A stretch of 64,000 nucleotides of DNA from Aetokthonos hydrillicola CCALA 1050 (GCF_017591665.1 NZ_JAAKGC010000030.1:19483-83482), one strand, 5' to 3'. Positions 1 to 29,877 are shown, counted from the first letter of the stretch. The notes: a model not told the origin generated them from the letters alone. Numbers and translations are program-made.

Positions 1-249
1 TTCGTCAAAGTAATTTATAGATTAGCAGATGCATGGAAGAGGACCCTTCCATCAGTCATTTTTTATAAACTAAGGAAGAAACCTAGAGATGAATCTACGT
101 TTCCTTGGTAACCTGATTGTATTGCCATAACATCTGTTGAAGAGACAACCAGATTATTGCAGCTGCTGCAACGAATAAGGCAATAGTATCATCGTTCAAT
201 AACTTGATCAGATATTATAAGTCCTGTACGGTTTAGATTTTAAGGGAAT

Positions 250-453
250 TCAGAAATTTTGTAACATGGTCATCGACACACTCCGCCAAATCGCTGAAAC
301 CCTATATTTTTGGTTGGAGTGTGTCGATCGCTTATGGGGTAAGGTTTTGATCTCTATGTCTTGCTTGATTTTTGGGAAGTTGTATAATGTTTTTCAGGAG
401 TGTGTCGATTTGTCGTCTGAAACCCTTACACAGTAAGGGCTCCTAGACGAACT
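250..453 (+). promoter_or_regulatory. CRISPR leader for array 1, AT-rich and ~90% identical to the leader of array 2
   Basis: The ~200 bp immediately 5' of the first repeat is near-identical to the reverse complement of 11391-11590, which lies between cas2 and array 2. It contains repeated gtgtgtcgat motifs. Confidence 0.75.
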
Positions 454-2081
454 CCCTACCGACTGGGTTAAATCGGATTAGTTGGAAACCAGGAACAAGG
501 TTAATGCCCCTATTATTCAAGCCCTACCGACTGGGTTAAATCGGATTAGTTGGAAACAAATTACGCTACCATAGACTTGATGTGCGCTTGATTAACCCTA
601 CCGACTGGGTTAAATCGGATTAGTTGGAAACTAGTGCAATCTGTGGTCAGTCAGTACTGGCCTAAAGCCCTACCGACTGGGTTAAATCGGATTAGTTGGA
701 AACCATAATTCCCCCACGCTCCATTTCCATTGTTCGGAAACCCTACCGACTGGGTTAAATCGGATTAGTTGGAAACGACTGCTAAATCAATCAAGACGAT
801 CCGGCGACCAGGTTTCCCTACCGACTGGGTTAAATCGGATTAGTTGGAAACTCTCATTCACTCTTGTATTGGCTATTCTTGCACTTAACCCTACCGACTG
901 GGTTAAATCGGATTAGTTGGAAACATCATATTCGGTCACTATGAATTTTTGGGGATAATCCCTACCGACTGGGTTAAATCGGATTAGTTGGAAACTTCTA
1001 AGACATCATGGGAGATGTCTTATTTTTTTCTCCCTACCGACTGGGTTAAATCGGATTAGTTGGAAACCTTTATTTCTTCTCAGTTTTGTCGTTTCCATCA
1101 CTCCCCTACCGACTGGGTTAAATCGGATTAGTTGGAAACATTAATACCCAGGTGGCAGCTATTGCCAAAAAAAAGCCCTACCGACTGGGTTAAATCGGAT
1201 TAGTTGGAAACCCCAAGTTTCGCCAAGGAATTGGTATCCCCAGGAACCCTACCGACTGGGTTAAATCGGATTAGTTGGAAACAAAAGTTGAAAATTCAGG
1301 AAAGAAACTTTCCCCTACCCTACCGACTGGGTTAAATCGGATTAGTTGGAAACCTGCATCCTGAACCGCGTTCAGAACTGGGTCACCAGCCCTACCGACT
1401 GGGTTAAATCGGATTAGTTGGAAACTGTATGATGGTCGTTTTTCGACAGGAGAAATTAGCGGACCCTACCGACTGGGTTAAATCGGATTAGTTGGAAACG
1501 GTGCATTCGGATAGTTCCTCTTTGGTGAGGAAACCCTACCGACTGGGTTAAATCGGATTAGTTGGAAACAATTTATCAGAAGAATTTCCCCAAGCGCCAC
1601 CACCCCCCTACCGACTGGGTTAAATCGGATTAGTTGGAAACTTCCACTGCTCAAAAGGTTCCCAGTCGTTTAGTTTGAAAACCCTACCGACTGGGTTAAA
1701 TCGGATTAGTTGGAAACATTCTGCAAATCGCCCACTTTTGCTGTTGGATTCGCAGTCAACCCTACCGACTGGGTTAAATCGGATTAGTTGGAAACGTTGG
1801 GTTGCGTCTTGCGGCCTTACATTCGGCAACTTCCCTACCGACTGGGTTAAATCGGATTAGTTGGAAACGAGGGGGCTGTGGTTTAGGGATAATGAAATAT
1901 CCAAACCCTACCGACTGGGTTAAATCGGATTAGTTGGAAACTTGCGGGTTTGCATTGCAATTTCCTGTGCCATCCCTACCGACTGGGTTAAATCGGATTA
2001 GTTGGAAACTTATCTTCAACATTTGCAACAAAAGCTATCGCAACTCCCTACCGACTGGGTTAAATCGGATTAGTTGGAAAC
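454..2081 (+). CRISPR. CRISPR array 1: 23 copies of a 36-nt repeat CCCTACCGACTGGGTTAAATCGGATTAGTTGGAAAC with 22 unique spacers of ~32-40 nt
   Basis: Perfectly conserved direct repeats with a period of ~70-75 nt and unique spacers, read directly from the sequence. The small ORFs called inside it (LPTGLNRISWK peptides) are repeat artefacts. Confidence 0.97.
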
Positions 2082-2115
2082 CATTTTGGTCATTGTTAAG
2101 AATATCCCTAAATCC

Positions 2116-2538
2116 TTAAAAAGACCAAGGATTAATGATTACAACCCCTGTTGAGGCAAAATCTTTTTCGTTACGCGTGACAAGTGATAGAGAGTTATGA
2201 AGTGCGATGGCTGCAATGAGAGAATCCATTGCGGGTAGAGATCGCCCCGAAAATTCTAGTTGCCCAACTAAGTTTCCCCACAACACCATTGTTGAGAAAT
2301 CAATACTTAAAATTCTGTTTTCAAAGCGTAGCGGTAGTGTTTCATTTAACCAAGTTGTTAGAGATTCTTTGCGGTTAGATGCAGTCATTTTGCTAATACC
2401 TTTAGCGATTTCGCCAATTGTGATGACGCTTAGATAAAGTGTTTCTGGCACTTGGGCATCTAGCCAATCTAAAACTTGTTGATTTGGTTGTTTGGCAATC
2501 AGTTCGGAAATCAAGCAAGTATCAAGGAGGTAGCTCAT
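2116..2538 (-). CDS. vapC: PIN-domain toxin, VapC family
   Basis: 140 aa. The N-terminus MSYLLDTCLISEL carries an acidic residue typical of PIN domains. It overlaps the upstream small gene by 4 nt (ATGA), the usual toxin-antitoxin arrangement. Confidence 0.75.
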   Translation of the reverse strand: MSYLLDTCLISELIAKQPNQQVLDWLDAQVPETLYLSVITIGEIAKGISKMTASNRKESLTTWLNETLPLRFENRILSIDFSTMVLWGNLVGQLEFSGRSLPAMDSLIAAIALHNSLSLVTRNEKDFASTGVVIINPWSF

Positions 2539-2762
2539 GGGGTGAAGCTATCACGGGCTTGACTGAGATCTCGGCTTAGGTCTAATTCTGAACTGACTTC
2601 AGCTAGGGGGGATTGACGGAAAAACTCTGAGAGTTTGGTGGTTTGTTCTGGGTAGGAGTTGTTATTCTGTGTGGTCAGGCTTTGGGCGAGTAGTTGGATA
2701 ATGTACAGCTTATCGTTAGCTGAGAGATTCAGGAGTTGTTGTTCGAGTTCTGGGATAACCAT
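2535..2762 (-). CDS. Small antitoxin-like protein paired with VapC
   Basis: 75 aa, translationally coupled upstream of the PIN gene. Its N-terminal PELEQQLLNLS...IIQLL pattern recurs in a second small orphan ORF at 34006-34176. Confidence 0.55.
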   Translation of the reverse strand: MVIPELEQQLLNLSANDKLYIIQLLAQSLTTQNNNSYPEQTTKLSEFFRQSPLAEVSSELDLSRDLSQARDSFTP

Positions 2763-3151
2763 ACTGGGGGTTAAGTTGAGGATAAATTTATTTTACTTTC
2801 CGCATCAGGGATCATCGTTTAATTTGCCGCCAGGCTAGAGTATCCGCCGAGATAATTGCACTCAGGGTTGTGTTATTGCGAAGCTGTAACGCACCTTGAA
2901 TTTGTGGCGGTGCGCCGCTTGACGACAACACAACAGCAATATTGGGAGAGGAAAATCCACACCCCAATTTGCCTCCCCTAAGTTAATATTTCTTAACATA
3001 GTTTGAAATATTAACGCCGACTTACTTAAGCGATCGCCTCCAGGTGATCGCTGTTTATTTGGGAGAATAGCTGATAGGTAAAAGCGTCTTCCACCCATAG
3101 GTTTTAATAGAAAACAAGAAAACAAAAACCCAAAACGAAGGGTAAAAGAGC

Positions 3152-3724
3152 ATGAGAAATCTTCATCGAGTGATGATTATTGCTGATGGCGATAACGCTT
3201 TTATGGCTGCGCATAATTTTAATCGCAAAATAGATTGGTGTAAGATGCGGGACTATTTAGCTGACCCAAAAGAAGGGAGAGAGTTAATTGAAATGGTGAT
3301 TTATATCGGTTTACCTCCTGCAAAAGAAAGATTTGAGGAACAGCGAAAAAGTAAAGAAAAATTTATTTATTGGGCAAAGAGTAATGGTTTTTTAGTTGTT
3401 GCTAGAGAAGGTAAAGCTAAGGGTGAAGATTATGAAAGCAATGTTGATGTTGTCATGGCAATTGATGCGATTCAGTTAGCTTTAGAAGTAAAACCAGATA
3501 TTGTAGTTTTAGTAACTGGAGATTCTGATTTCGCTTATTTAGCAGAGAAATTGAGAAGACGAGGAATAAGAGTTGAAGTAGCTTCAGTTGAACAATCTTT
3601 AGGGAGTGAGTTGAAAATTGCAGCTAATAGCATAGTGGATTTAAGTGAGGTTTTTGATAAATTTGCGCAACATGATGTCAACGAAAATTATCATCGTATA
3701 GGCAGTTCCACCGTCTTTGATTGA
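3152..3724 (+). CDS. NYN/LabA-like (PIN-fold) ribonuclease domain protein
   Basis: 190 aa. The IIADGDN...VVLVTGDSDF acidic motifs are characteristic of the NYN/LabA (DUF88) family. Confidence 0.65.
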   Translation: MRNLHRVMIIADGDNAFMAAHNFNRKIDWCKMRDYLADPKEGRELIEMVIYIGLPPAKERFEEQRKSKEKFIYWAKSNGFLVVAREGKAKGEDYESNVDVVMAIDAIQLALEVKPDIVVLVTGDSDFAYLAEKLRRRGIRVEVASVEQSLGSELKIAANSIVDLSEVFDKFAQHDVNENYHRIGSSTVFD

Positions 3725-3768
3725 TGAAATCATAGTACTGCAAACAACGAAAAATAAAAGGGTTTTTT

Positions 3769-4173
3769 ATGAAAACAGTCAATGGAAAGTTAATCAATCA
3801 AGAACAAATTCAGTGTGATAAATTGACCCATATGACGGAGGAAATTACCCAACGCTGTGATTATTTAGAATCTGAATATCTACAGAAGATAAATCAAGAA
3901 ATTGATAATACAAAATCTTGTCTTGAAAAGCTAGAGCAAAAAATCTGCTTTTTGGAGGATGTAACATTCAAACAAGCTAAGCAGTTGTCATTTCTTAAAA
4001 TAATGAGTGTTATTGGTCTACTTGGCTTGTTCTTTATATTTGGCATAAACCATCAACCGCAAAATGAAAGTATTAAACCGCATAAAAAGCAGTCAAAATA
4101 CACCACCGATAAAGAGATGGTGTTTCAAGAAAAGTTTCAATTTCTGTCTCGTCCACAGAGGATGAGCTTTTAA
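3769..4173 (+). CDS. Hypothetical coiled-coil protein with a C-terminal transmembrane helix
   Basis: 134 aa with a hydrophobic stretch IMSVIGLLGLFFIFGI. The 3' end overlaps a locally repeated DNA segment (4092-4130 resembles 4450-4486), so the C-terminus is uncertain. Confidence 0.35.
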   Translation: MKTVNGKLINQEQIQCDKLTHMTEEITQRCDYLESEYLQKINQEIDNTKSCLEKLEQKICFLEDVTFKQAKQLSFLKIMSVIGLLGLFFIFGINHQPQNESIKPHKKQSKYTTDKEMVFQEKFQFLSRPQRMSF

Positions 4174-4217
4174 ACAAGTATTTATTCTGACTCCTGATAA
4201 AAAATCGAGGAAATAAA

Positions 4218-4415
4218 ATGAGAGCAATTGTCAATGGTAAATTGGTTGATTTACCACAAGGTACAACAGTCGAAGAATTACGAAAAAAAATGCCAGAAAT
4301 TGGTCAAGATGATGTGATGGAAGAAAGTTTTAGTGGTACTCGTCCTTTGAAGAGTAATGAAGCACTAAAAGAAGGTTCAAAAATTTGGACTATGCCAAAA
4401 ATTGTGAAAGGGTAA
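4218..4415 (+). CDS. Ubiquitin-like beta-grasp protein (ThiS/MoaD-like), candidate Ubl of a Bil/Bub-type system, ending in a single glycine
   Basis: 65 aa. The MRAIVNGKLVDLPQGTTVEEL...LKEGSKIWTMPKIVKG* pattern matches ThiS/MoaD with a C-terminal Gly. There is a GAGGA ribosome-binding site, and the gene lies immediately upstream of the E2-like and JAB-E1 genes. Confidence 0.6.
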   Translation: MRAIVNGKLVDLPQGTTVEELRKKMPEIGQDDVMEESFSGTRPLKSNEALKEGSKIWTMPKIVKG

Positions 4416-4630
4416 TAAAAAGGAGTCAGGAGTCAGAATACAGGAGGCAGAATACACCAACCATAAAGGGATGGCGTTTTAGCACTCCTGAATCAACCCC
4501 TCCGCAGAGTAACGAGTAGACAAGGTAGTTCATTCTGACTCCTGACTCCTGACTCCTGAATTCTTCTTCGATTTTTGTTTATCCAATAATCTAGGTTCAG
4601 TTTCTGAGTGTTGAATGAAGAGGGTGAAGT

Positions 4631-5116
4631 ATGGCAGTTACAATTAGCCAAGAAAAATCGGGATTTAAACCCAGCGCGCGAATTATACAAGAACTCAAAT
4701 TGTTAGAAAAAGTAGCCAAAAATGTAATTGTTGGTAGCAAAACAGTAAGTCAGACAAAATACACGGCTATTCTGATTAAGGGGATGCCATTATCTTCTAG
4801 AAAGTTTAAAGTTTCCAACACAGATGTTTTGTTTTTATTACCACCAAATTATCCTCAGCTTCCTCCTATTGGCTGCTATCTAAATTATCCATGGAGTACT
4901 GTAGGAGAAGGAGACCATCACTTCACTAGACAAAGCTACTATGGAGCACCATTTTTGAGTGAAGAAGGATGGTATTGGTACTGTGTTGGATTAGGTGGAG
5001 GATTTAACCATGAAGTGTGGTTAAATTCTTGGAGACCTAGCCATAATCCAGAAAAAGGTCATAATCTTTCTACTTTGTTTGTGACAGCACGCCACGCAAT
5101 TAATAGTGACGAATAG
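4631..5116 (+). CDS. E2-like (UBC-fold) ubiquitin-conjugating enzyme homologue
   Basis: 161 aa. LLPPNYPQLPPIGC matches the E2 signature FPxxYPxxPP followed by Cys. The gene sits between the Ubl and the JAB-E1 gene. Confidence 0.55.
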   Translation: MAVTISQEKSGFKPSARIIQELKLLEKVAKNVIVGSKTVSQTKYTAILIKGMPLSSRKFKVSNTDVLFLLPPNYPQLPPIGCYLNYPWSTVGEGDHHFTRQSYYGAPFLSEEGWYWYCVGLGGGFNHEVWLNSWRPSHNPEKGHNLSTLFVTARHAINSDE

Positions 5117-5130
5117 GAAATTTAAAAATC

Positions 5131-6573
5131 ATGAATAAACCTTCTACAATTTCTGTGCATGTGGCACCAAAAATGTGGTCTGAGTTTCGAGAATCTATGG
5201 TTCAGTCTCGGATGTTTAATGAGGAAGTTATTGGTTTTTTATTTTGTCAGCGTCATCAAGTTTCTAAAAGGAAATTCCGATATATTCCTAAAACTTGGGT
5301 CGTTCCTGCTTCTGATTGCTATGAACATCAATCAGCTAGTGGGTTAGTTTTAAAACAGCATTTTCATTCTTATCTGTTAGAAAATCATCTTCAACCTGGT
5401 ATGGATGTAGTTCACATCCACACCCATACAAGTCCAAATTTTCCAGACTTTTCGTATGTTGACGACCGTTATGAATCTGAATATGCAAGATTTATTGCGT
5501 CTCATTTTCCTAAAAAACCTCGTTTGATTTCCGGGGTGTTTGACGAAAATCTAAAATATGGTCAATTTCGGATTTGGGATAGGAAAGGGCAGAAATTTGA
5601 AAATGTTCAATTCTACAATTCGTTATTTATGGTCTCTAACCCTGAAGAGAACATGAAAAATACAAATTTTATGTTTGCTCGCCAAAAAATATTTGGTGAA
5701 GCCAATCAAAACGTTTTGAATCAGCTAAAAGTTGGACTTATTGGGTGTGGTGGAATTGGTTCAATTTTTGCAGAATTATTAGGACGTTTGGGTGTGAAAA
5801 ATTGGGTATTAATTGATCCAGATCAATTGGAGACAGTTAATCTCAATCGAATGCCTGGTGCTACACAAGAAATGGTAGACCAACAATGGTATAAAGTACA
5901 TTATGTCAAGCATCTAATCAAAAAAATTTACCATCAGGGTTCTTGTGTCAAAACAATATCAACTACAGTTGAAAGCGAATCAGCCAAGCAAGAAATCGCA
6001 AGCTGTGATTTAGTAGTGGTAGCGACTGACAATCATCTTTCTCGTAAAACTGCTCAAGAATTAGCCTTGCAGTATATGCGTCCTTTGGTGTGTTTAGGAA
6101 CTCATATAGATCTGAAATCAGATCATACACCGCGCATGTATTGCAGAATTACCGTTCCTCCTTTGGGAGGTGGTTGGTGTTTGATGTGCGGTAATATTAT
6201 CAACCTGCAACGTGCAGCCTTAGAGTCTGCACCTTTAGAGATTAACAAGATGGCTGCAAGTGCTGGTTATTTAGAAGGAGTGAATGACCCAGCCGTATTT
6301 TGGTTAAATAGTATTTGTGCAAGTACAGGTGTTGGTGTCATTCATGGGATGATCAGCGGTTTTTTAAATGTTGATTCTGGGATTGATTGGATTTATGAGT
6401 TTCCCGTTAGTGATTGGCGTAAGACGAATATAGAGTATTTGCACAATGACGATTGTTACTTTTGCGGGCTTAATAATTCCGAGGAAGTCGAAACCTCCGA
6501 AAATTCAGATTTTATAAAGAAGAATTCAGGAGTCAGGAGTCAGGAGTCAGAATACATCCGCTACCTAGAATAA
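5131..6573 (+). CDS. JAB/JAMM deubiquitinase fused to an E1-like (ThiF/MoeB-type) activating enzyme
   Basis: 480 aa. The N-terminal HIHTHTSPNFPDFSYVDD is a JAMM-like HxH...S..D metal site. The central LIGCGGIGS...DPDQLETVNLNRM is the ThiF/E1 Rossmann and adenylation motif. Two CxxC pairs follow (CLMCGN, CYFCGL). The last ~15 aa are encoded by STRR heptamers. Confidence 0.85.
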   Translation: MNKPSTISVHVAPKMWSEFRESMVQSRMFNEEVIGFLFCQRHQVSKRKFRYIPKTWVVPASDCYEHQSASGLVLKQHFHSYLLENHLQPGMDVVHIHTHTSPNFPDFSYVDDRYESEYARFIASHFPKKPRLISGVFDENLKYGQFRIWDRKGQKFENVQFYNSLFMVSNPEENMKNTNFMFARQKIFGEANQNVLNQLKVGLIGCGGIGSIFAELLGRLGVKNWVLIDPDQLETVNLNRMPGATQEMVDQQWYKVHYVKHLIKKIYHQGSCVKTISTTVESESAKQEIASCDLVVVATDNHLSRKTAQELALQYMRPLVCLGTHIDLKSDHTPRMYCRITVPPLGGGWCLMCGNIINLQRAALESAPLEINKMAASAGYLEGVNDPAVFWLNSICASTGVGVIHGMISGFLNVDSGIDWIYEFPVSDWRKTNIEYLHNDDCYFCGLNNSEEVETSENSDFIKKNSGVRSQESEYIRYLE

Positions 6574-6820
6574 ATAGCAACTACTACTCTTTTAAGTTAA
6601 ACGTAGGTTGGGTTGAGGAACGTAGACGCCCCTAGCGGCTTCCCGCAGGGTAACCCAACATTTTTAGGATTTTGTTGGGTTTCGCTGTCGCTCTACCCAA
6701 CCTACAATTATCCTTAACCGAACCGTATTGCATTCGCCCCTACATATCGTACCTGTATCATGCTTTTCTTGAAAGTGATAACTGATAACTGTTCACTATT
6801 AAAATATCCAGGGAGATGTT

Positions 6821-7852
6821 ATGAAATTTAGAAATGCTAAAGGCAATCTGGCTGTTATTTTTCTCATGACTTTATTTTGCTTAAGTGTTTTTAGTTATGG
6901 AGTATACGCAAGCTATTACGGATTGCTATTATTTCAGCAAGGAGCTTTTAATTTTATTATCGGTCTGTTCTTTTTGGTTTGTATTGGTATCCCTAGTATT
7001 TACTGGGTGCTCACAACCATGTACAGATATTTTGCTGCTGTACCTTCTTATGTTAATCAAAGAAAAATACGAGTTATTAACCCTCTTTTAGTACACGAGA
7101 AAGGATTATATTCTGAAACTGAAAAATGGTTATGTACGAGGGTTAAAGAGTTAGCTCAAGCAGAAGGATTACCCAAAACTCCAGTAGTAGGAATTGAATT
7201 ATGTGATGACAATCCTAATGCTTATGCAGTGGGTGCAACTCGTTCTTATGCGATGGTTGTTGCTACTACTGGTTTAATCAAACAATTAAGTCACAGAGAA
7301 GTTGCTGCGGTGATGGCGCATGAATTAGGACATATTGCGAATCTAGATACGATGGCAAAAACTCTTCTTTCCGCTGCTTTGGATGGTGTGATGCTAATAC
7401 TTTTTACGCCAATGTTGCTGATTGTTTGGTATTTTGGGAGATTTGTGGCTTTATTAATGCTGGCTGCAGGTGTAATTTATGGTCTGATGGGTAATTGGCA
7501 GCACGCAACAGGCTTTTTTGTGGGTGTATTGGTTTGGATTCTTTTAATGATGTTGCCGATGATAACAAAGTTCTTGGTTACATTATTGACTTTTTGGCAC
7601 AGTCGTTGGCGCGAATATCACGCTGATGCGGTTGCAGCTAGGTTAACGAGCGTTGATGATATGGTATCAGCCTTGGTAAGGCTTGACCGTTTACCTTTCG
7701 AACCACCGAAAAAAAATAAAGAACAAATGGCTACTTTATGGATTCGAGTGGCGATGACTCAAGAAACAGGTGTGTTTCACTGGTTAAAGCATACACACCC
7801 ACCTATTCACAAAAGAATTGAAGCTTTAAGACGTGGATTTTATTTGAGATGA
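6821..7852 (+). CDS. M48 family zinc metalloprotease (HtpX-like), integral membrane
   Basis: 343 aa with the HELGH zinc motif (VMAHELGHIANLD) and several hydrophobic helices. Confidence 0.85.
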   Translation: MKFRNAKGNLAVIFLMTLFCLSVFSYGVYASYYGLLLFQQGAFNFIIGLFFLVCIGIPSIYWVLTTMYRYFAAVPSYVNQRKIRVINPLLVHEKGLYSETEKWLCTRVKELAQAEGLPKTPVVGIELCDDNPNAYAVGATRSYAMVVATTGLIKQLSHREVAAVMAHELGHIANLDTMAKTLLSAALDGVMLILFTPMLLIVWYFGRFVALLMLAAGVIYGLMGNWQHATGFFVGVLVWILLMMLPMITKFLVTLLTFWHSRWREYHADAVAARLTSVDDMVSALVRLDRLPFEPPKKNKEQMATLWIRVAMTQETGVFHWLKHTHPPIHKRIEALRRGFYLR

Positions 7853-7923
7853 TTGCTTGTGGAAATGGCATTTCTCTCAATTGTAATAGTAAACCCTGTT
7901 CAAAAATATACTAAAACTAAAGT

Positions 7924-8913
7924 ATGTACAGCTATCATATTGAGTTAAACGGTGAAGTGTTGCACGTTGGATTTAATCGTAATCTTCCGTCTCAGGGCGA
8001 TCGCATAGTCCGAGATGCGCTAGAAGTCGTAAGCCAAAAAATTGATTCTGGGGAAATTACAGGAGGTAAACGTATTTTAATTGACGGACCACAATCTGTT
8101 CCTGTTGCTTACGTGCTTTCTCACAAACTTGCGCATTTATACCAAGTCGTCGCAATTTTAGATCCCAAACTTGGTAGTAAAGTAAGTACACCAAATGGTG
8201 CTATTAGACACAAAACTTATATCGTCACCTCTGTACATGGTTCCGCAGAATATCAAGTCGGTGATTTGATCGAAACAACTGAATCTCAGAAAGAGCGATC
8301 GCTGATCAAAGTTGTTTTGTGCGGTCCTGCAAAGTCAGGAAAATCCTGTTTGCGAGATGGTTTAAAAAGAGCTATTTTAGGCAGATTAGGTGCACCTTAT
8401 CCTTATGTCATCACCGCTTGTCCAGATGGGGAAGGCTCTTGGCATCAAGAAGCTTATGAAAACAATCAGTCAGCAGCGAAGGATTATAAGTATAATAATA
8501 AAGCAGATTTTACACCTGAGTTTGCACAACAAGCTGCTAAATGGGTACAGGGTGCAAACCAGTTAATCAATATTATTGATGTTGGTGGTAAAACTTCTCC
8601 AGAAAATAAAATAATAATGAAAGAAGCAACCCACGCTGTCATTTTGTCAGGAGATGTAAACAAATTTCCTGAATGGGAAGTTTTCTGCCAAGAATTAAAT
8701 CTTAAAATCGTTGCCAAGATTCACAGCCAATTACATGGCGTTCAAGATGAGGTTATGCAAGCTGATAATTGGCAAGAACAAACGAACGAATTGTTAGAAA
8801 CCGCCCCATTACTAACAGGTAGCGTACATCGATTAGAACGTGGAGAAAATGTATCAGATCGTCCAATGGTCAAAGCATTGGCTGATGTGTTGAAACATTT
8901 AACAAAGTGTTAA
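7924..8913 (+). CDS. Hypothetical P-loop (GPAKSGKS) protein with an internal tandem duplication; speculatively a Csx3-like CRISPR accessory protein
   Basis: 329 aa. LIDGPQSVPVAYVLSHKLAHL (first half) parallels VLCGPAKSGKSCLRDGLKRAI (second half, Walker-A-like). It lies adjacent to the array 2 trailer. Confidence 0.4.
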   Translation: MYSYHIELNGEVLHVGFNRNLPSQGDRIVRDALEVVSQKIDSGEITGGKRILIDGPQSVPVAYVLSHKLAHLYQVVAILDPKLGSKVSTPNGAIRHKTYIVTSVHGSAEYQVGDLIETTESQKERSLIKVVLCGPAKSGKSCLRDGLKRAILGRLGAPYPYVITACPDGEGSWHQEAYENNQSAAKDYKYNNKADFTPEFAQQAAKWVQGANQLINIIDVGGKTSPENKIIMKEATHAVILSGDVNKFPEWEVFCQELNLKIVAKIHSQLHGVQDEVMQADNWQEQTNELLETAPLLTGSVHRLERGENVSDRPMVKALADVLKHLTKC

Positions 8914-9094
8914 GTGTTTCAAATCATCTGATTTAACTCTAATTAAAGAGGGTTGAGAAACATAGCGTTACTCAACCTTTGTTTATGCTTTTTAATTGAG
9001 TAAGTACTCATTCATTTTGAGTGAAAAAAATTTCACCACCACGCATGAAAGAGGAATATTCCCTACTCAGAGTTGCCCGAAAGATCCGCCCCAT

Positions 9095-9275
9095 CTGACA
9101 TCTTGCACCCCGGCTGAATCAGCCCGATATCCTGCCCTACACTTAAGTGTAGGGCTAATAGCTTAAGTCCATTGAAATGGACTGAAATCCTTGCTCAGTC
9201 CTCTTGAGAGGACTTTAGCTATCAACAAGCGATTTAAATCGCTGGCTGGCTGACAGCCCAGGTGCAAGATATCAG
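9095..9275 (+). mobile_element. 181-bp MITE copy A with 15-bp terminal inverted repeats CTGAYATCTTGCACC
   Basis: It matches 12127-12307 over its whole length with identical TIRs. Its internal perfect palindrome (GCCCTACACTTAAGTGTAGGGC) differs between copies by compensatory changes. It overlaps the 3' end of the 9272-9904 gene. Confidence 0.8.
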
Positions 9276-9904
9276 CCATGCCCTCTTGACGTTTCTCCCT
9301 GCAAAATCCCAATAATCGTCCGGGTTACAAACTCTAAATCCTGCGGCACTGGATGCAGAGGCAAATACTGTACCACATGATGTGCAGCGCGATCATACAG
9401 ACCAAATCGCCAAATTTCCCCGGTTGAAACTGCACCGTACAAAATAGGACTCTCACTTTCTACCCAGCGATCCAGCGCAATTAATTCAACGGCAAGCTGA
9501 GTAAAGCCTTTGGTCAAGTCCGATTGTTTTGCTTCAATAATCAGAAGATTACTCGGGCTGGGAATATAGTAGTCTAGGGAGCCTTTTAACCAATTGCTCA
9601 CACTAACCGTATACTCAATATTGATTGAATAGTCTAACAGATCGCAAATCCGATCAAGCAACGGAAAAATCAATGCCTCCCGACGAGCCTGTTCAGTGGT
9701 TGTATTCACCCGTTTGAGTCTGCGCCGCATACTGAGTGCAAGTTCAGGCAGCCAATCTAATTCAGACTGCGTGTAAGGGAGATCTTCGCGATCGCTGCGC
9801 TCGATCGTACAGCCCAAATCTGCCAAAATATCTTCCGGTGAGTAAGGCAATTCAAAATACTTGCTAAAGGTGTAGGACTCGTTTGGATCTAAAACCTTGG
9901 GCAT
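9272..9904 (-). CDS. PD-(D/E)xK nuclease-fold protein (probable start at MPKVLDPNES)
   Basis: DYYIPSPSNLLIIEAKQSD matches the D...(D/E)xK core. A GAGGAG ribosome-binding site lies 10 nt upstream of the ATG at 9904. The longer ORF reaching 10075 would overlap the neighbouring gene. The last codons fall inside the MITE TIR. Confidence 0.55.
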   Translation of the reverse strand: MPKVLDPNESYTFSKYFELPYSPEDILADLGCTIERSDREDLPYTQSELDWLPELALSMRRRLKRVNTTTEQARREALIFPLLDRICDLLDYSINIEYTVSVSNWLKGSLDYYIPSPSNLLIIEAKQSDLTKGFTQLAVELIALDRWVESESPILYGAVSTGEIWRFGLYDRAAHHVVQYLPLHPVPQDLEFVTRTIIGILQGETSRGHG

Positions 9905-10058
9905 GGTGTCGATCTCCTCACTGAAACAGTATACCCATTCTATCGAAGCTCCTAACTTTTCACAGTAATTAAAGCAGGAAGCCCATGAAGACAAGGTTAT
10001 TCTAGATTTAGAACAACCTTGTCTGTTATGCGCGACATGGGAGGAAGGCGACGCGACT

Positions 10059-10259
10059 TTAGTCGCCGTCAACACTCTTTTCGACTAATAATATTAGTTG
10101 ACGCCCCCATCTCTCCATTAATTCACTAGCGCTAATACCTTGTTGTTTTGCGGTTTCGGTAATCCCTTTCCATGCAGTATCAGTTAATCTGGTGGCACGA
10201 GGTTTTTTGATTTCGTCATAAAGAACTGGTATATTTCGTGTTCTTTTTACTCCTTTCAT
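10059..10259 (-). CDS. Small ribbon-helix-helix (CopG/Arc-like) DNA-binding protein
   Basis: 66 aa. KKPRATRLTDTAWKGITETAKQQGISASELMERW fits a beta-strand plus two helices RHH pattern. It is abutted by a 27-bp inverted repeat. Confidence 0.4.
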   Translation of the reverse strand: MKGVKRTRNIPVLYDEIKKPRATRLTDTAWKGITETAKQQGISASELMERWGRQLILLVEKSVDGD

Positions 10260-10261
10260 AT

Positions 10262-10459
10262 GGTTCTTGCGTACTTAGCGTGCTAAATATGTTGAAAAAT
10301 AAGCTTGAAATCCTTGCTGGGATAAGATGACAGCCATTATTTACTGCCTTTTAGGTCTGATGATTAAAATTTTGGCTATAAGCGCCTGTAAGCCTTGATT
10401 TTAAAACAAAGTTATCGACTGTAATTAAAAATTTAGCACGTTAAGTACGCAAGAACCGG
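10262..10459. repeat. Near-perfect 27-bp inverted repeat (GGTTCTTGCGTACTTAGCGTGCTAAAT) whose arms lie ~145 bp apart, between the RHH gene and the array 2 trailer
   Basis: Arms at 10262-10288 and 10433-10459 with one mismatch. Either a MITE-like element or a large operator or hairpin. Confidence 0.6.
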
Positions 10460-10497
10460 GGGAAATAATTTTTTCTCTAACATGTCGCAGTTCGCTG

Positions 10498-11390
10498 GTT
10501 TCCAACTAATCCGATTTAACCCAATCGGTAGGGCTAAATTACCTGAATTCAATCGTATGGGTGTGCTCGTTTCCAACTAATCCGATTTAACCCAATCGGT
10601 AGGGCATGCATGTGAAGGAGAACGCAAATGCTCTTATTACTGTTTCCAACTAATCCGATTTAACCCAATCGGTAGGGCAACTGAACCATTAGCTCGTGCT
10701 AATGTCAGTAAAGGTTGTTTCCAACTAATCCGATTTAACCCAATCGGTAGGGTGGTGGTTCTAACTGGCCTCATCCTGATCTTTACAGGTTTCCAACTAA
10801 TCCGATTTAACCCAATCGGTAGGGGGCACTTCAAGAATGACCCAACGCAGATTTCTAGCGTTTCCAACTAATCCGATTTAACCCAATCGGTAGGGTTCTA
10901 TCCGGGATAACTGGCGGGACTTACCTCCTTTAGTTTCCAACTAATCCGATTTAACCCAATCGGTAGGGATAAAAAAGCACGAACAGAAGAAAAAATCAGG
11001 TTTCCAACTAATCCGATTTAACCCAATCGGTAGGGTTGGTTTTTTGCATAACAGTGCAATTGCAGACCAGAGTTTCCAACTAATCCGATTTAACCCAATC
11101 GGTAGGGCGCTTTCAAAAAGTGTTGTCCACGCGATTTTATGTTTCCAACTAATCCGATTTAACCCAATCGGTAGGGTCAATGGGTGAAAAATCCCAGCGG
11201 TGCGGTTGTTGTTTCCAACTAATCCGATTTAACCCAATCGGTAGGGGTAAGACGACTGTCTTTCTCTAATCCAGAAAGATTATGGTTTCCAACTAATCCG
11301 ATTTAACCCAATCGGTAGGGACCCGACTATTATTCCCATGGAACTTTCAGGGAAGTTTCCAACTAATCCGATTTAACCCAATCGGTAGGG
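10498..11390 (-). CRISPR. CRISPR array 2: 13 copies of the repeat GTTTCCAACTAATCCGATTTAACCCAATCGGTAGGG (one A/G difference from array 1) with 12 spacers; leader and cas2 on the high-coordinate side
   Basis: Direct repeats with unique spacers read from the sequence. Orientation is set by the adjacent leader and cas2. Confidence 0.97.
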
Positions 11391-11608
11391 AGTTCGTCCA
11401 GGAGCCCTTACACAGCAAGGGTTTCAGACGACAAATCGACACCATCCTGAAAAACATTATAAACGTTGTGGAAAATCGAGCAACAGACAAGCCTCAAAAC
11501 CTTACCCTGTAAGCAATCGACACACTCCAACGGAAAATATAGGGTTTCAGCGATTTGGCGGAGTGTGTCGATGACCATGTTACAAAATCTCCTTAATATC
11601 TCTAAAAT
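11391..11608 (-). promoter_or_regulatory. CRISPR leader of array 2
   Basis: It lies between the cas2 stop and the first repeat and is near-identical to the array 1 leader in reverse complement. Confidence 0.75.
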
Positions 11609-11884
11609 CTAGATCACGTAATACTTTGGCGGTGTCGTTGGTTCTTCACTACCAATAGTTAAGACCCTAGAAACAGCTTCTTGTGAAACCCAGTAAAAGC
11701 GGACATTATCCTCAGATGGTTTCACCAATTTCTTCGATTTTTCAAAAAGTTGCCGCATTTCCTCCAAGCTTAAAAAACATTCAAACACAGAAAACTGCAC
11801 CCTTCGGCCGTAACCCTCTAGAAAATTGGATAACTTCGTACGTCTCTTATCATCAGGAATATCATACACAACGACCACTAACAT
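11609..11884 (-). CDS. cas2: CRISPR-associated endoribonuclease Cas2
   Basis: 91 aa. MLVVVVYDIPDDKRRTKLSNFLEGYGRRVQFSVFEC is the canonical Cas2 N-terminus. It is directly leader-proximal. Confidence 0.92.
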   Translation of the reverse strand: MLVVVVYDIPDDKRRTKLSNFLEGYGRRVQFSVFECFLSLEEMRQLFEKSKKLVKPSEDNVRFYWVSQEAVSRVLTIGSEEPTTPPKYYVI

Positions 11885-12126
11885 GTTTATTAGTAAGAAT
11901 TAATACTTCATAAAAGTATAGATTTTTTTACTTTTTAATACAAATTAAGTAATTATACAAAATCTGATTCATTGAAAAATGAAGTTTTCAAAGGGTTTCA
12001 GATAGAAACAAAGTCTCTTCTCCTAAGATGCACATTTTAGAATGCCTGTATAGCAAGGGTTTTAGAACTCCCGAAAAATGTGCTTCTTTCATATGTTGCT
12101 AGCACCATTTTGGCGCTAGTTGGAGG

Positions 12127-12307
12127 CTGACATCTTGCACCATTCTCAATCAGCCCGATATCCCGCCCAGAACTGAAGTTCTGGGCTAATAGCGCGCATT
12201 CCATTGAAATGGACTGAGGTTCTTGAGCAGTCCTCTTGAGAGGACTTTAGCTATCAGACAGCGATTTAAATCGCTGGCTGGCTGACAACCTAGGTGCAAG
12301 ATATCAG
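12127..12307 (+). mobile_element. 181-bp MITE copy B, same family and same orientation as copy A
   Basis: Same TIRs (CTGACATCTTGCACC ... GGTGCAAGATATCAG). The internal palindrome GCCCAGAACTGAAGTTCTGGGC differs from copy A by compensatory changes. It lies in the intergenic region between cas2 and RT-cas1. Confidence 0.8.
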
Positions 12308-12329
12308 TCTTCCCCCTTAAGGTGATTTC

Positions 12330-12445
12330 CGAGAAAGAAAATACCTGGGGAGTGCGAGTTTCGGCTTCGCTCAACTCAAGGTTTCGACTTCGCTCAACTC
12401 ACGATCTCTCAGTTGGTTGAGCGAAGTCGAAACCAACGGCGACGG
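12330..12445. repeat. Small hairpin repeat element (GTTTCGACTTCGCTCAAC ... GTTGAGCGAAGTCGAAAC); a second copy is inverted at 47276-47365
   Basis: The two loci share ~90 bp with an internal inverted repeat. Confidence 0.7.
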
Positions 12446-12467
12446 TATATTTATTCCTGTAAATCAC

Positions 12468-14642: not shown

Positions 14643-14699
14643 CGTAATCAGAAAGAGTTTTCTAGAAAATTCCTATTTGATATTTCAAATTTAAAACCT

Positions 14700-15032
14700 T
14701 GTCTATGAGTCGATAAGACAGACAATAGGTAGGTTGGGTTGAGGGACGAAACCCAACATTTTTAGATTTTTGTTGGGTTTCACTTCGTACCCCTACGGGG
14801 AAGCAAGCTACAACCCAACCCAATACTGCTCGGTTAAGCCGAAAATTTAAATTTAATCTAGGTTGGGTTGAGGAACGAAACCCAACATTTATAAGGATTT
14901 GTTGGGTAACGCTTATGCGCTCTACCCAACCTACGATTTTCCAAAACCCCGTGCAGTATTGCAGCCCAACCTACTACTGTATGGTTTTATGAGTCGTTTA
15001 TTCTGACTCCTGACTCCTGACTTCTGACTCCT
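14700..15032. repeat. Cluster of dispersed palindromic 'gttgggtt/aacccaac' repeats plus STRR heptamers (CTGACTC)n
   Basis: Several copies of aggttgggttgagg..aacccaacat units. Related copies occur at 6600-6700, 33770-33850, 50100-50450, 54890-54990 and 56640-56790. Confidence 0.8.
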
Positions 15033-15035
15033 TTT

Positions 15036-16831: not shown

Positions 16832-18136
<1,305 letters not shown>

Positions 18137-29809: not shown

Positions 29810-29877
29810 AGATTTATAGATTGACATGGACGACATGTCCGTCTCAATCTATAAATCTATAAAATGTCTCTACCAGT

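What the first reader, a model, noticed from the sequence alone, without database searches (positions are those of the whole stretch)
250..11608. Two convergent CRISPR arrays with duplicated leaders bracket an 8.4-kb cargo of defence and accessory genes
Array 1 (+) and array 2 (-) share a ~200-bp leader (near-identical in reverse complement). Their 36-nt repeats differ by a single A/G. Only array 2 has an adjacent cas2 and RT-cas1. Inverted homologous leaders and repeats ~8-10 kb apart are substrates for homologous-recombination-mediated inversion of the intervening cargo (VapBC, NYN, the Ubl system, M48 protease, P-loop protein, PD-(D/E)xK nuclease). Alternatively the cargo may have been captured into a formerly single locus. 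Either way, defence genes are nested inside a CRISPR locus.
Basis: seen in the sequence. Interest (0 to 1): 0.6.

Follow-up and report, generated by a model that had tools for sequence, protein, structure and literature searches.

The report
Rearranged CRISPR locus with ubiquitin-like accessory genes
Two CRISPR arrays in the cyanobacterium Aetokthonos hydrillicola face each other across 8.4 kb of genes that are the CRISPR system's own conserved helper genes, including a ubiquitin-like tagging pathway, and this block was flipped once in the past, so the layout is a local rearrangement of a catalogued system rather than a new kind of element.

Summary
The sequence features are real. Array 1 (+, 454-2081) has 23 repeats and array 2 (-, 10498-11390) has 13. 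The 36-nt repeats differ at one base. Each array has its own ~220-nt leader. The leaders are 84% identical, not near-identical.

The organism is Aetokthonos hydrillicola Thurmond2011. The 8.4-kb "cargo" is mostly the accessory module of a type III-B/RT-Cas1 system: NYN, CorA-like, Ubl, E2, JAB-E1, M48 and Csx3-AAA. The first five were already catalogued as CRISPR auxiliary set "UAS-33" (Altae-Tran 2023).

In 47 related loci the usual order is WYL, RT-Cas1, Cas2, leader-array, module, cas10/cmr, all co-directional. Here the leader-array-module block is inverted relative to both flanks, and a second leader and array sit beside cas2. That supports a past inversion.

I found no sign of ongoing switching. 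The repeat variants are strictly array-specific, no spacers are shared, and a second assembly shows the same orientation.

A third cas2-leader-array unit, 99% identical to leader 2, lies elsewhere in the genome.

VapBC and the PD-(D/E)xK pair are lineage-specific additions.

The ubiquitin-like genes resemble Type I Bub operons, but the E2 has invariant cysteines and there is no BubE.

The locus itself is ordinary. The uncharacterised Ubl module is the interesting part.

The parts
1..234 (-). Upstream region of cas10/cmr2. The gene itself starts 49 nt before the window and runs leftward, followed by cmr3.
   Evidence: Locus L002 is the same sequence with an offset of +2076. It shows a 564-aa Cas10 (Cmr2_N, Cas10-Cmr2_palm2) and Cmr3. 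A GGDD motif lies at residue 345 and there is no HD domain. A promoter-like site on the - strand lies at 243-214.
235..453 (+). Leader 1. It carries three copies of the 13-nt motif GGAGTGTGTCGAT (272-284 inverted, 316-328, 397-409) and a conserved TATAAT at 383-388.
   Evidence: Homology to leader 2 begins at the position of the cas2 stop codon.
454..2081 (+). CRISPR array 1: 23 repeats of the derived variant GACTGGG and 22 unique spacers.
2116..2538 (-). VapC-type PIN toxin. Lineage-specific.
   Evidence: Pfam PIN, E = 1.5e-12. NCBIfam VapC, E = 1.3e-16, below the curated cut-off. Absent from all related loci.
2535..2762 (-). Putative VapB-like antitoxin, 75 aa, overlapping the vapC start.
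   Evidence: Assigned by position only. No family match.
3152..3724 (+). NYN-domain ribonuclease, the first gene of the conserved accessory module.
   Evidence: Pfam NYN, E = 8e-25. PADLOC NYN, E = 1.6e-10. 84-87% identical in the genome-collection loci that carry it.
3769..4173 (+). 'CorA-like' small membrane protein: coiled coil plus one transmembrane helix. It evolves fast.
   Evidence: PADLOC CorA-like, E = 1e-34. No Pfam CorA match. Orthologues are 115-161 aa and about 50% identical.
4218..4415 (+). ThiS-like ubiquitin-like protein, 65 aa, ending in an invariant ...PKIVKG.
   Evidence: Pfam ThiS-like, E = 7e-4, below the cut-off. The C-terminal Gly is conserved in at least 95% of 34 orthologues. 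It is fused to the E2 in relatives.
4631..5116 (+). E2-like (UBC-fold) protein with invariant Cys82 and Cys118 and an invariant D95 and H97 (H96 in at least 90%).
   Evidence: Pfam Prok-E2_E, 26.5 bits against a cut-off of 25. Conservation. The AlphaFold model (pLDDT 64) hits only UBC E2 enzymes, weakly.
5131..6573 (+). JAB/JAMM peptidase fused to an E1 (ThiF) adenylating enzyme.
   Evidence: Pfam ThiF, E = 8e-28. The closest solved protein is Citrobacter BubCD, E = 3.7e-14, collinear over residues 22-399. Residues E32, H95, H97, S108 and D111, the GxGxxG motif and G379-Y380 are conserved in at least 95% of 40 orthologues.
6821..7852 (+). HtpX-like M48 membrane zinc protease with an HELGH motif. 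It is present in part of the family.
   Evidence: Pfam Peptidase_M48, E = 8e-29. NCBIfam HtpX matches fall below the cut-off. A match covering at least 40% of it is present in 10 related loci with the JAB-E1 gene.
7924..8913 (+). Csx3-AAA: a Csx3/Crn3-type domain fused to a P-loop ATPase.
   Evidence: PADLOC Csx3-AAA, E = 1.6e-111. The source genome names it 'CRISPR-associated protein Csx3'.
9099..9283 (.). Copy A of a 185-bp dispersed repeat element.
   Evidence: 83% identical to the copy at 12131-12315, in direct orientation.
9272..10075 (-). CRISPR-associated PD-(D/E)xK nuclease-family protein. The public gene call is 9273-9905. Lineage-specific.
   Evidence: PADLOC PD_DExK, E = 4.5e-22. 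No homologue in any related locus.
10059..10259 (-). 66-aa ORF upstream of, and overlapping, the PD-(D/E)xK ORF. Function unknown.
   Evidence: ORF and public gene call. No family match in PADLOC, the only library it was scanned against.
10498..11390 (-). CRISPR array 2: 13 repeats of the ancestral variant GATTGGG and 12 unique spacers.
   Evidence: Of the other arrays of this family, 13 of 27 carry exactly this repeat and none carries the array-1 variant.
11391..11608 (-). Leader 2. Motif copies lie at 11560-11572 and 11516-11528, a variant copy at 11435-11447, and TATAAT at 11456-11461.
   Evidence: It is 99.1% identical to the leader of a third unit elsewhere in the genome.
11609..11884 (-). 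cas2
   Evidence: Pfam CRISPR_Cas2, E = 1.4e-23. An identical protein is encoded twice in the genome.
12131..12315 (.). Copy B of the 185-bp dispersed element, in the 583-nt gap between RT-cas1 and cas2.
   Evidence: Homology with the third unit (L062) ends inside it, at 12308.
12468..14642 (-). RT-Cas1 fusion: reverse transcriptase plus the Cas1 integrase.
   Evidence: Pfam RVT_1, E = 2e-36, and Cas_Cas1, E = 1e-87. PADLOC Cas1_IIIb and RT.
15036..16517 (-). HTH-WYL CRISPR-associated protein, a likely regulator.
   Evidence: NCBIfam TIGR03985, 227 bits against a cut-off of 60. PADLOC WYL, E = 1e-132.

Best explanation
The region is the adaptation and accessory half of a type III-B (Cmr) CRISPR-Cas locus of Aetokthonos hydrillicola Thurmond2011. 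The genes between the two arrays are not foreign cargo. They are the system's own conserved accessory module: NYN RNase, CorA-like membrane protein, Ubl, E2, JAB-E1, M48 protease and Csx3-AAA. The first five were catalogued as UAS-33. Two lineage-specific additions sit at the array trailers: VapBC, and a small ORF with a PD-(D/E)xK nuclease.

In relatives the order is WYL, RT-Cas1, Cas2, leader-array, module, cas10/cmr, all on one strand. Here the leader-array-module block is flipped relative to both flanks, so leader 1 now sits back to back with the cas10 promoter. A second leader and array lie next to cas2. The layout is therefore the stable product of a past inversion together with a leader duplication or re-acquisition. 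It is not a working switch.

How it works (inferred):
- Each leader carries its own promoter, a conserved TATAAT 66-71 nt before repeat 1, and drives its array towards the module.
- RT-Cas1/Cas2 acts in trans and adds spacers at each leader-repeat junction independently. This explains why all repeats within an array are identical while the arrays differ by one base.
- crRNAs load the Cmr complex. Its Cas10 has a GGDD motif and no HD domain, so it probably makes a nucleotide signal that Csx3-AAA and the membrane and RNase accessory proteins read or remove.
- The Ubl, E2 and JAB-E1 genes form a Bub-like protein-tagging pathway. Its target and its link to the signal are unknown.
For: Shown:
- Arrays, leaders and repeat variants.
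- No spacer is shared between the arrays or with 12 other arrays.
- Accessory identities.
- Cas10 and Cmr3 lie immediately upstream of the window and run divergently.
- The NYN-to-Csx3-AAA string is conserved next to arrays of the same repeat family in 7 genome loci and, in whole or part, in most of 44 metagenome loci.
- Orientation statistics over 47 loci: cas10 is downstream and co-directional in 19 of 20; cas2 is co-directional in 18 of 18; arrays are co-directional in 27 of 30; the five loci with two or more arrays have their same-family arrays in direct orientation.
- Forty of the 47 loci show a cas gene or an array in view. The 7 without are contigs of 9 kb or less.
[quoted passage not shown] Its representative contig, JAAUYB010070855, is my locus L052.
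- The leader family is conserved in 23 leaders, including the TATAAT and three co-varying motif copies.
- Leader duplication with a cas2 3' fragment recurs in L006 and L019. L018 also has a second leader and array, but no cas2 fragment was detected there.
- The derived repeat variant fills all of array 1, whereas array 2 and 13 of 27 other arrays of this family carry the other variant and none carries the array-1 variant.
- Independent contigs of strain CCALA 1050 show the same order from cas10 to leader 2.

Inferred: the promoter function of the TATAAT, trans-acting adaptation, the signalling chemistry, and the direction of the evolutionary change.
Against: - The ancestral state is inferred from other species, not from a close outgroup. 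The closest relative (L018, 85% identical JAB-E1) is itself rearranged, with an inverted cmr operon.
- Intergenic regions are too diverged to map breakpoints.
- The join between RT-cas1/cas2 and array 2 crosses a 408-bp exact repeat shared with a second locus. The short-read assembly breaks inside it at window 11543 and 11698. That adjacency therefore rests on the window's own assembly.
- No expression, adaptation or interference data exist for this organism.
- No protospacers were found.
- The consensus promoter scan did not call the leader TATAAT, because no -35 match is present.
Confidence: 0.7

Rival explanations
1. One reading: the inverted leaders and repeats act today as substrates for reversible homologous recombination, so the population carries both orientations of the 8.4-kb block, a phase-variation-like switch of defence gene orientation.
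For: - Inverted homologous sequences bracket the block: a 237-nt arm pair including repeat 1, 88% complementary.
- Comparative data show that the block has changed orientation at least once.
- Other loci in the family also show arrays in odd positions or orientations: L025, L030, L018.
Against: - The leaders are only 84% identical and the longest perfect run is 55 nt.
- The repeats share runs of at most 26 nt, separated by unique spacers.
- The single-base repeat variant is strictly array-specific, 23/23 against 13/13. No crossover inside the arrays has therefore survived.
- Two assemblies show one orientation.
- No recombinase or invertase gene lies in 1-16517.
- Flipping would not change which promoter drives the module genes, so no obvious regulatory pay-off exists.
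Confidence: 0.08
2. The layout arose without an inversion. A separate cas2-leader-array cassette, with its PD-(D/E)xK pair, was inserted downstream of Csx3-AAA by recombination between copies of the 185-bp dispersed element. Alternatively, two formerly separate loci were fused.
For: - Direct copies of a 185-bp element at 9099-9283 and 12131-12315 bracket exactly PD-(D/E)xK, orf66, array 2, leader 2 and cas2.
- The same genome has a stand-alone cas2-leader-array unit (L062). Its homology to the window ends inside that element. It is 99% identical over cas2 and the leader.
- Nostoc loci L011-L013 and L017 have an array convergent on the cmr operon.
Against: - Insertion of a cassette does not explain why cas10/cmr lies upstream of and divergent from leader 1, rather than downstream of Csx3-AAA as in 19 of 20 relatives.
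- It also does not explain why RT-cas1 and WYL sit on the far side.
- The two element copies are only 83% identical, so they are not the fresh products of one event.
Confidence: 0.15
3. The cargo was inserted into a formerly single array and split it in two.
For: VapBC and the PD-(D/E)xK pair are absent from all related loci and sit at the array ends.
Against: - A split array would give two arrays in the same orientation with one leader. Here the arrays are inverted, each with a complete leader on its outer side.
- The core genes are conserved CRISPR-linked genes in 40 or more loci.
- No spacers are shared, and the repeat variants differ by array.
Confidence: 0.02
4. Part of the layout is an assembly artefact. 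The assembler joined RT-cas1/cas2 to the wrong leader-array, because cas2 plus leader occurs twice in the genome.
For: - A 408-bp exact repeat (window 11417-11824) is shared with L062.
- Both short-read contigs of the same organism end inside it.
- Two partial Cas2 products at contig ends are recorded for strain CCALA 1050.
Against: - The window and L062 come from a later assembly whose L062 contig is 624 kb and which spans the repeat.
- Diagnostic differences on both sides of the repeat (11825-11846 and 11414-11416) are consistent within the window.
- Even if swapped, an inverted cas2-leader-array would still sit there. Only the RT-cas1 adjacency would change.
Confidence: 0.05

Closest known systems
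[quoted passage not shown] 2023, Science; PMC10910872, Fig. 6D legend and supplement)
   Same: It has the same five gene families, and my locus L052, which is that paper's representative contig JAAUYB010070855, shows the same gene order next to CRISPR components. L052 carries a JAB-E1 57% identical to the window's, with NYN, Ubl and E2 in the same order after RT-Cas1 and Cas2.
   Different: The paper lists the set without description or experiment. The window adds the M48 protease and Csx3-AAA as frequent members. It shows the JAB domain on the E1 and the Bub-type relationship. It is also a rearranged example with two convergent arrays.
Type I Bub (6E.1) bacterial ubiquitination-like operons: BubAB, BubCD, BubE (bioRxiv 2024.11.21.623953 / PMC11601596; operon class 6e of Iyer et al. 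2006, PMC1779556)
   Same: - A JAB-E1 fusion collinear with Citrobacter BubCD (E = 3.7e-14).
- A tyrosine (Y380, conserved in at least 95% of orthologues) aligns with the Tyr of BubCD's 'RGYITGV' segment. By my count that is at or next to the published catalytic Y370.
- Ubl and E2 are fused in some relatives, as in BubAB.
- WYL regulators occur nearby, as reported for 8% of Bub operons.
   Different: - There is no DUF6527/BubE gene.
- The E2 has invariant cysteines (C82, C118) rather than the Ser-x-His of BubB.
- Ubl and E2 are separate genes here.
- The module is embedded in type III CRISPR loci, a context the Bub paper does not mention: 'CRISPR' occurs 0 times in its text.
Bacteroides fragilis type III-B Cmr system with CorA, NrN and NYN (Chi & White 2024, PMC11346440; Shmakov et al. 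2018 preprint 10.1101/270033)
   Same: A type III-B system that pairs an NYN RNase with a CorA-named membrane protein. The window's Cas10 lacks an HD domain. That the B. fragilis Cas10 also lacks one is from my own knowledge. NYN is proposed there to trim crRNA.
   Different: The window's 'CorA-like' protein has 134 aa and one transmembrane helix, with no Pfam CorA match. There is no NrN or SAM-lyase gene. Csx3-AAA, which belongs to the Csx3/Crn3 family of cA4-cleaving ring nucleases, is present instead. The signal molecule therefore cannot be assigned.
RT-Cas1/Cas2 adaptation modules of type III systems, for example Marinomonas mediterranea (own knowledge: Silas et al. 2016)
   Same: A fused reverse transcriptase and Cas1 next to cas2 and an array.
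   Different: There is no Cas6 domain on the fusion. A 583-nt gap with a dispersed repeat separates RT-cas1 from cas2. At least three leader-array units in the genome could be served by one RT-Cas1.
Multi-array CRISPR loci with paralogous leaders (own knowledge: common in cyanobacteria and Sulfolobales)
   Same: Several arrays of one repeat family, each with a conserved leader, are interspersed with cas and accessory genes. Loci L006, L018 and L019/L020 in this family have two such arrays.
   Different: In those relatives the paired arrays are in direct orientation. The convergent pair is unique to the window among the 47 loci.

Membership tests
CRISPR array | Three or more near-identical direct repeats of 23-47 nt, regularly spaced by unique spacers of similar length | tested here: met
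   23 and 13 identical 36-nt repeats. Spacers of 31-42 nt are all unique.
CRISPR array | A leader on the transcription-proximal side, conserved among arrays of the family | tested here: met
   23 leaders align at a mean column identity of 80%, including the TATAAT and the 60 nt next to repeat 1. Transcription itself was not tested.
Type III-B (Cmr) CRISPR-Cas | Cas10/Cmr2 large subunit with a cyclase GGDD motif, plus Cmr3-Cmr6 | tested here: inconclusive
   Cas10 (Cmr2_N, palm2, GGDD at residue 345) and the Cmr3 N-terminus lie just outside the window. Cmr4-6 were seen only in relative L018, not for this genome.
RT-Cas1 adaptation module | One polypeptide with RT and Cas1 domains, with cas2 adjacent | tested here: met
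   RVT_1 at residues 83-289 and Cas_Cas1 at 394-678. cas2 lies 583 nt downstream.
UAS-33 CRISPR auxiliary set | Co-occurrence of Prok_E2, ThiF, ThiS, NYN and CorA genes next to CRISPR components | tested here: met
   All five are present in order. Homologues occur on the published representative contig, L052.
Type I Bub operon | JAB/JAMM-E1 fusion (BubCD) | tested here: met
   phmmer E = 3.7e-14 to PDB 9ea4 over residues 22-399. JAMM residues and the adenylation motifs are conserved.
Type I Bub operon | Ubl-E2 fusion (BubAB) cleaved after the Ubl C-terminal Gly | tested here: inconclusive
   The genes are separate in the window. Fused 225-226-aa forms exist in relatives, with ...PKIVKG directly followed by the E2 Met in the three sequences read. 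Cleavage was not tested.
Type I Bub operon | DUF6527 serine protease (BubE) present in all Bub operons | tested here: not met
   No DUF6527 match in any cargo protein. No unassigned + strand ORF of 60 aa or more lies between NYN and Csx3-AAA.
Type I Bub operon | E2 with a catalytic Ser (Ser-x-His) and E1 with a catalytic Tyr (oxyester chemistry) | tested here: inconclusive
   The E1 Tyr is conserved and aligned. The E2 has invariant C82 and C118 and no Ser-x-His motif. The active-site loop of the model has low confidence, pLDDT below 50 for residues 86-127.
CorA Mg2+ channel family | Large cytosolic domain, two C-terminal transmembrane helices and a GMN motif | tested here: not met
   134 aa, one hydrophobic helix, no Pfam CorA match. 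Only a loose [GSCN]-[MI]-[NK] motif follows the helix. The name comes from a PADLOC model.
Csx3/Crn3 ring nuclease | Csx3 fold that binds and cleaves cA4 | not testable with these tools
   The profile match to Csx3-AAA is very strong, E = 1.6e-111. Activity is unknown.
Invertible DNA switch (phase variation) | Inverted repeats plus a dedicated recombinase, with both orientations present in a population | tested here: not met
   Inverted repeats are present, but no recombinase gene lies in 1-16517. Only one orientation appears in two assemblies. Read-level heterogeneity is not testable here.

The most novel reading that the evidence does not exclude
The Bub-like Ubl/E2/JAB-E1 pathway, with the M48 protease and the small CorA-like membrane protein, is a true effector or regulatory arm of type III-B CRISPR immunity. 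Under this reading, target-RNA recognition by the Cmr complex leads, directly or through the Cas10 signal read by Csx3-AAA, to ubiquitin-like tagging of a phage or host protein. Such a link has not been demonstrated. It would also give the functionally orphan Bub-type pathways a biological role.
Probability: 0.3. Interest if true: 0.8.

Novelty: new member of a known kind. Interest (0 to 1): 0.4.

Why it matters
The two-array layout itself is a local rearrangement and matters little beyond showing that leaders and arrays are recombination-prone in this locus family.

What matters more is the content. A complete ubiquitin-like conjugation pathway sits as a conserved, syntenic component of type III-B/RT-Cas1 CRISPR loci across many cyanobacteria. 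The authors who described Bub-type pathways state that they have no demonstrated biological role. The CRISPR-linked version offers a defined context in which to look for one: a programmable trigger, neighbouring RNase, membrane protein, protease and ring-nuclease genes, and an E2 that seems to use cysteine rather than serine.

The conserved leader, with three co-varying motif copies, is a candidate recognition element for RT-Cas1/Cas2 integration or for the WYL regulator.

Tried and rejected
- **Protospacer searches.** Two leader-proximal spacers gave no exact match in viral contigs. All 34 spacers gave no hit by blastn against phage and plasmid collections. Against the rest of the window and two other loci of the same genome there were only 13-15-nt chance matches.
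- **Rfam.** A scan of 1-17000 at E <= 0.01 found nothing.
- **Breakpoint mapping.** I compared the region upstream of cas10 and downstream of Csx3-AAA with canonical loci. Homology stops within about 25 nt of the coding regions, so breakpoints cannot be placed.
- **RT-Cas1 look-up.** Exact look-up by sequence failed, because the public gene call differs from the ORF's TTG start.
- **E2 profile against PDB.** No BubB match, only a marginal UBC hit. The E2 model is low-confidence in the active-site region. The Foldseek hits are all UBC E2s, but with E >= 0.016.
- **Promoter scan.** The consensus scan did not call the leader TATAAT.
- **Site-specific invertase.** None was found in the window. A 321-aa ORF in relative L018 gave a weak PADLOC 'putative invertase' hit (E = 5e-4) with no Pfam support.
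- **Solo gene upstream of NYN in L038-L043.** I first read it as a reverse transcriptase. It matches the Cas1 part, residues 391-715 at 34-38% identity, so it is a second Cas1-like gene.
- **Perfect run between the two leaders.** I considered whether the 55-nt identical run reflects gene conversion. It coincides with the most conserved part of all 23 leaders, so purifying selection explains it.

Full report
**1. Observation.**
Tandem-repeat and repeat-family scans find two CRISPR arrays.
- Array 1 is at 454-2081 on the + strand. It has 23 identical 36-nt repeats (CCCTACCGACTGGGTTAAATCGGATTAGTTGGAAAC) and 22 spacers of 32-42 nt.
- Array 2 is at 10498-11390 on the - strand. It has 13 identical repeats and 12 spacers of 31-39 nt.

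The two repeats differ only at position 10: C in all 23 copies of array 1 and T in all 13 copies of array 2. The repeat ends in GTTGGAAAC on the strand that leads away from each flanking non-repetitive segment, so the arrays are convergent and 8,416 bp apart.

The outer flanks are homologous. The inverted-repeat pair 253-489 / 11355-11591 is 88% complementary when repeat 1 is included. An exact alignment of the leaders alone (235-453 against the reverse complement of 11391-11608) gives 185/220 = 84%. The longest perfect run is 55 nt. 'Near-identical' is therefore an overstatement.

cas2 (11609-11884) and an RT-Cas1 fusion (12468-14642) follow leader 2. A CRISPR-associated HTH-WYL protein (15036-16517) comes next, and then housekeeping genes: enolase, asd and ribBA.

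**2. What lies outside the window.**
Exact-protein look-ups recover the same sequence in other assemblies.
- Locus L002 extends 2,076 bp to the left. It shows a 564-aa Cas10/Cmr2 (GGDD at residue 345, no HD domain) and Cmr3 on the - strand. The cas10 start codon lies 49 nt before the window. Leader 1 is therefore back to back with the cmr operon.
- Source names identify the organism as Aetokthonos hydrillicola Thurmond2011. Strain CCALA 1050 provides the short-read assembly.
- The same genome holds a third unit at another site, L062, among glycosyltransferase genes. It consists of cas2 (identical protein), a leader 216/218 identical to leader 2, and a 15-repeat array with 14 different spacers and the array-2 repeat type.
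- The window and L062 share a 408-bp exact repeat (window 11417-11824). Both short-read contigs end inside it, at 11543 and 11698.

**3. The 'cargo'.**
Profile searches give the following:

| Coordinates | Strand | Identity |
|---|---|---|
| 2116-2538 | - | VapC/PIN, with a small upstream partner ORF |
| 3152-3724 | + | NYN RNase |
| 3769-4173 | + | 134-aa protein matching PADLOC 'CorA-like' (E = 1e-34) |
| 4218-4415 | + | 65-aa ThiS-like Ubl |
| 4631-5116 | + | Prok-E2_E protein |
| 5131-6573 | + | ThiF-type E1 with an N-terminal JAMM domain |
| 6821-7852 | + | HtpX-like M48 protease |
| 7924-8913 | + | Csx3-AAA (E = 1.6e-111) |
| 9272-10075 | - | CRISPR-associated PD-(D/E)xK protein, preceded by a 66-aa ORF |

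Most of these are known type III accessory families (Shah et al. 2018; Shmakov et al. 2018; Chi & White 2024).

**4. Related loci.**
Searching for Csx3-AAA in one genome per species gave 14 loci. Searching for JAB-E1 in metagenomes gave 44 loci. tblastn with all window proteins plus Cas10, combined with repeat searches, shows a recurrent architecture on one strand: WYL, RT-Cas1, Cas2, leader-array, NYN, CorA-like, Ubl, E2, JAB-E1, (M48), Csx3-AAA, cas10/cmr. L004, L019 and L021 are examples.

Over the 47 loci that carry JAB-E1:
- cas10 is downstream and co-directional in 19 of 20.
- cas2 is co-directional in 18 of 18, and upstream in 16 of them.
- Arrays of this repeat family are co-directional in 27 of 30.
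- Five loci have two or more arrays, and their same-family arrays are in direct orientation.

Forty of the 47 loci show a cas gene or an array in view. The seven that do not are contigs of 9 kb or less. The family extends to unicellular cyanobacteria: Cyanobacterium stanieri has NYN, a 120-aa gene, Ubl, E2, JAB-E1, RT-Cas1 and Cas2.

VapBC and the PD-(D/E)xK pair have no counterpart in any locus. In several relatives the slot between array and NYN holds an antisense 311-323-aa NYN-domain gene instead.

**5. Prior knowledge of the module.**
The supplement of Altae-Tran et al. [quoted passage not shown] Its representative is contig JAAUYB010070855. That contig is my locus L052. The association is therefore catalogued, but the paper gives no description or experiment.

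The nearest characterised pathway is the Type I Bub (6E.1) operon.
- The window's JAB-E1 matches Citrobacter BubCD collinearly (E = 3.7e-14).
- It keeps the JAMM residues, the adenylation motifs, and a conserved G379-Y380 that aligns with the BubCD tyrosine in 'RGYITGV'.
- In some relatives Ubl and E2 are one 226-aa protein, with ...PKIVKG followed directly by the E2. This is the BubAB arrangement.

There are also differences.
- No DUF6527/BubE gene is present.
- The E2 has invariant C82 and C118 and an invariant D95 and H97 (H96 in at least 90%), rather than Ser-x-His.
- Its model has the UBC core but a low-confidence active-site loop. Foldseek returns only UBC E2s, weakly.

The 'CorA-like' protein fails the CorA definition. 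It has one helix, 115-161 aa, and no Pfam match.

**6. Inversion.**
Relative to the common architecture, the window keeps the two flanks (cmr genes and the adaptation module) in their usual mutual orientation. The leader-array-module block between them is flipped, and an extra leader and array sit beside cas2. A single inversion of that block is the most economical explanation. The extra leader would come either from a pre-existing inverted leader copy that mediated the inversion, or from later re-acquisition of a leader next to cas2.

- Re-acquisition is plausible because cas2 plus leader 2 is 99% identical to the L062 unit, which signals recent exchange.
- Leader duplication is recurrent in the family. 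It carries a cas2 3' fragment in L006 and L019. L018 also has a second leader and array, but no cas2 fragment was detected there.
- A truncated leader without an array sits upstream of Csx3-AAA in L010.

Several observations argue against a working switch.
- The leaders are 16% diverged.
- The repeat variants do not mix between arrays.
- No spacers are shared.
- The CCALA 1050 contig has the same order from cas10 to leader 2.
- No recombinase gene is present.

Because array 2 and 13 of 27 other arrays of this family carry the T variant and none carries the array-1 variant, the C variant of array 1 is derived. Its presence in all 23 repeats fits growth by copying the leader-proximal repeat. That is independent spacer acquisition at leader 1 after the duplication (inference).

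**7. Leader anatomy.**
Twenty-three leaders align well. All of the following are conserved:
- a 13-nt motif in one inverted and two direct copies;
- a CTGAAACCC motif in two copies;
- a TATAAT 66-71 nt before repeat 1;
- an almost invariant 60 nt next to the repeat.

The 5' half of the 13-nt motif differs between species but changes in step in all three copies. Six of 13 positions show changes on both sides, for copy 1 against copy 2 and for copy 1 against copy 3. None of 500 shuffles reaches the observed covariation score.

This fits a protein-binding site that co-evolves with its protein, alternative hairpins, or concerted evolution. The data do not distinguish these. The segment is 95% identical between leaders 1 and 2, although leader 1 no longer follows cas2. 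Its function therefore belongs to the array, not to cas2.

**8. Verdict.**
It is wrong about captured cargo and unsupported about ongoing switching.
- The locus is a rearranged member of a catalogued type III-B/RT-Cas1 family.
- The uncharacterised, conserved Bub-like Ubl pathway inside it is the feature most worth experimental follow-up.

Noticed in passing
L062 (GCA_017591595.2, JAALHA020000002.1:328758-349033), cas2 10001-10276, array 10495-11542: A third cas2-leader-array unit in the same genome, among glycosyltransferase genes and without RT-cas1. Its leader is 99.1% identical to leader 2, and it has 14 unique spacers. An IS607-like resolvase-plus-TnpB pair lies 3.5 kb downstream. The 408-bp exact repeat shared with the window is a much better recombination substrate than the leader 1 / leader 2 pair.
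   Followed up: partly
window 272-284, 316-328, 397-409; 11560-11572, 11516-11528, 11435-11447: A 13-nt leader motif (GGAGTGTGTCGAT) in one inverted and two direct copies. It occurs nowhere else in the 64-kb window. Its variable half co-varies among the three copies across 23 leaders from different organisms.
   Followed up: partly
window 9099-9283 and 12131-12315: A 185-bp dispersed element in direct orientation, 83% identical between copies. It brackets PD-(D/E)xK, orf66, array 2, leader 2 and cas2. Fragments occur in L006, L007, L018 and L037. The homology with L062 ends inside it.
   Followed up: partly
window 6591-6719 and 14717-14948: A second small repeat family, with hairpin-containing units of about 130 nt. 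One copy lies between JAB-E1 and M48, and two tandem copies lie between RT-cas1 and the WYL gene.
   Followed up: no
window 4427-4456, 4535-4559, 6526-6550, 15003-15032, 18139-18203: Heptanucleotide tandem repeats (CTGACTC / TCAGGAG / AGGAGTC) in intergenic spaces. From my own knowledge, these resemble the short tandemly repeated sequences typical of heterocystous cyanobacteria.
   Followed up: no
window ~3070-3151: About 85 nt upstream of the NYN start codon is conserved at 75-85% in 12 related loci, while other intergenic regions of the locus are not. It may be a promoter or a 5' untranslated regulatory element of the module.
   Followed up: no
L006 1610-2581, L014 319-1287, L018 6810-7745, L022 5848-6816: In relatives the slot between the array and the module holds an antisense 311-323-aa protein with a C-terminal NYN domain. 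The window has VapBC (PIN) there, so a PIN-like RNase gene occupies this position in either case.
   Followed up: partly
proteins P0053, P0061, P0062, P0088 (relatives of window 4218-5116): Ubl and E2 are encoded as one 225-226-aa protein in some relatives. This implies cleavage after the terminal Gly, as shown for BubAB.
   Followed up: partly
L038-L043, L049, L050, L057: A second, divergent solo Cas1-like gene (34-38% identical to the Cas1 part of RT-Cas1) sits directly upstream of NYN. The WYL gene follows JAB-E1 in these loci.
   Followed up: no
L018 14189-21393: In the closest relative (85% identical JAB-E1) the whole cmr operon (cas10 to cmr6, plus a CARF7/RelE-like gene) is inverted and convergent on a second, direct array. 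No Csx3-AAA is in view there.
   Followed up: partly
L010 1170-1290: A truncated leader, running from motif copy 1 to just before the TATAAT, lies between the WYL gene and Csx3-AAA with no array attached.
   Followed up: no
window 22711-25542, 26543-31248, 56859-62636: Outside the CRISPR region: a TPS-domain secreted protein next to a DUF928 gene, two FHA-domain proteins (one with a cyclic-nucleotide-binding domain), and a 1,925-aa ORF. I did not examine any of these further.
   Followed up: no
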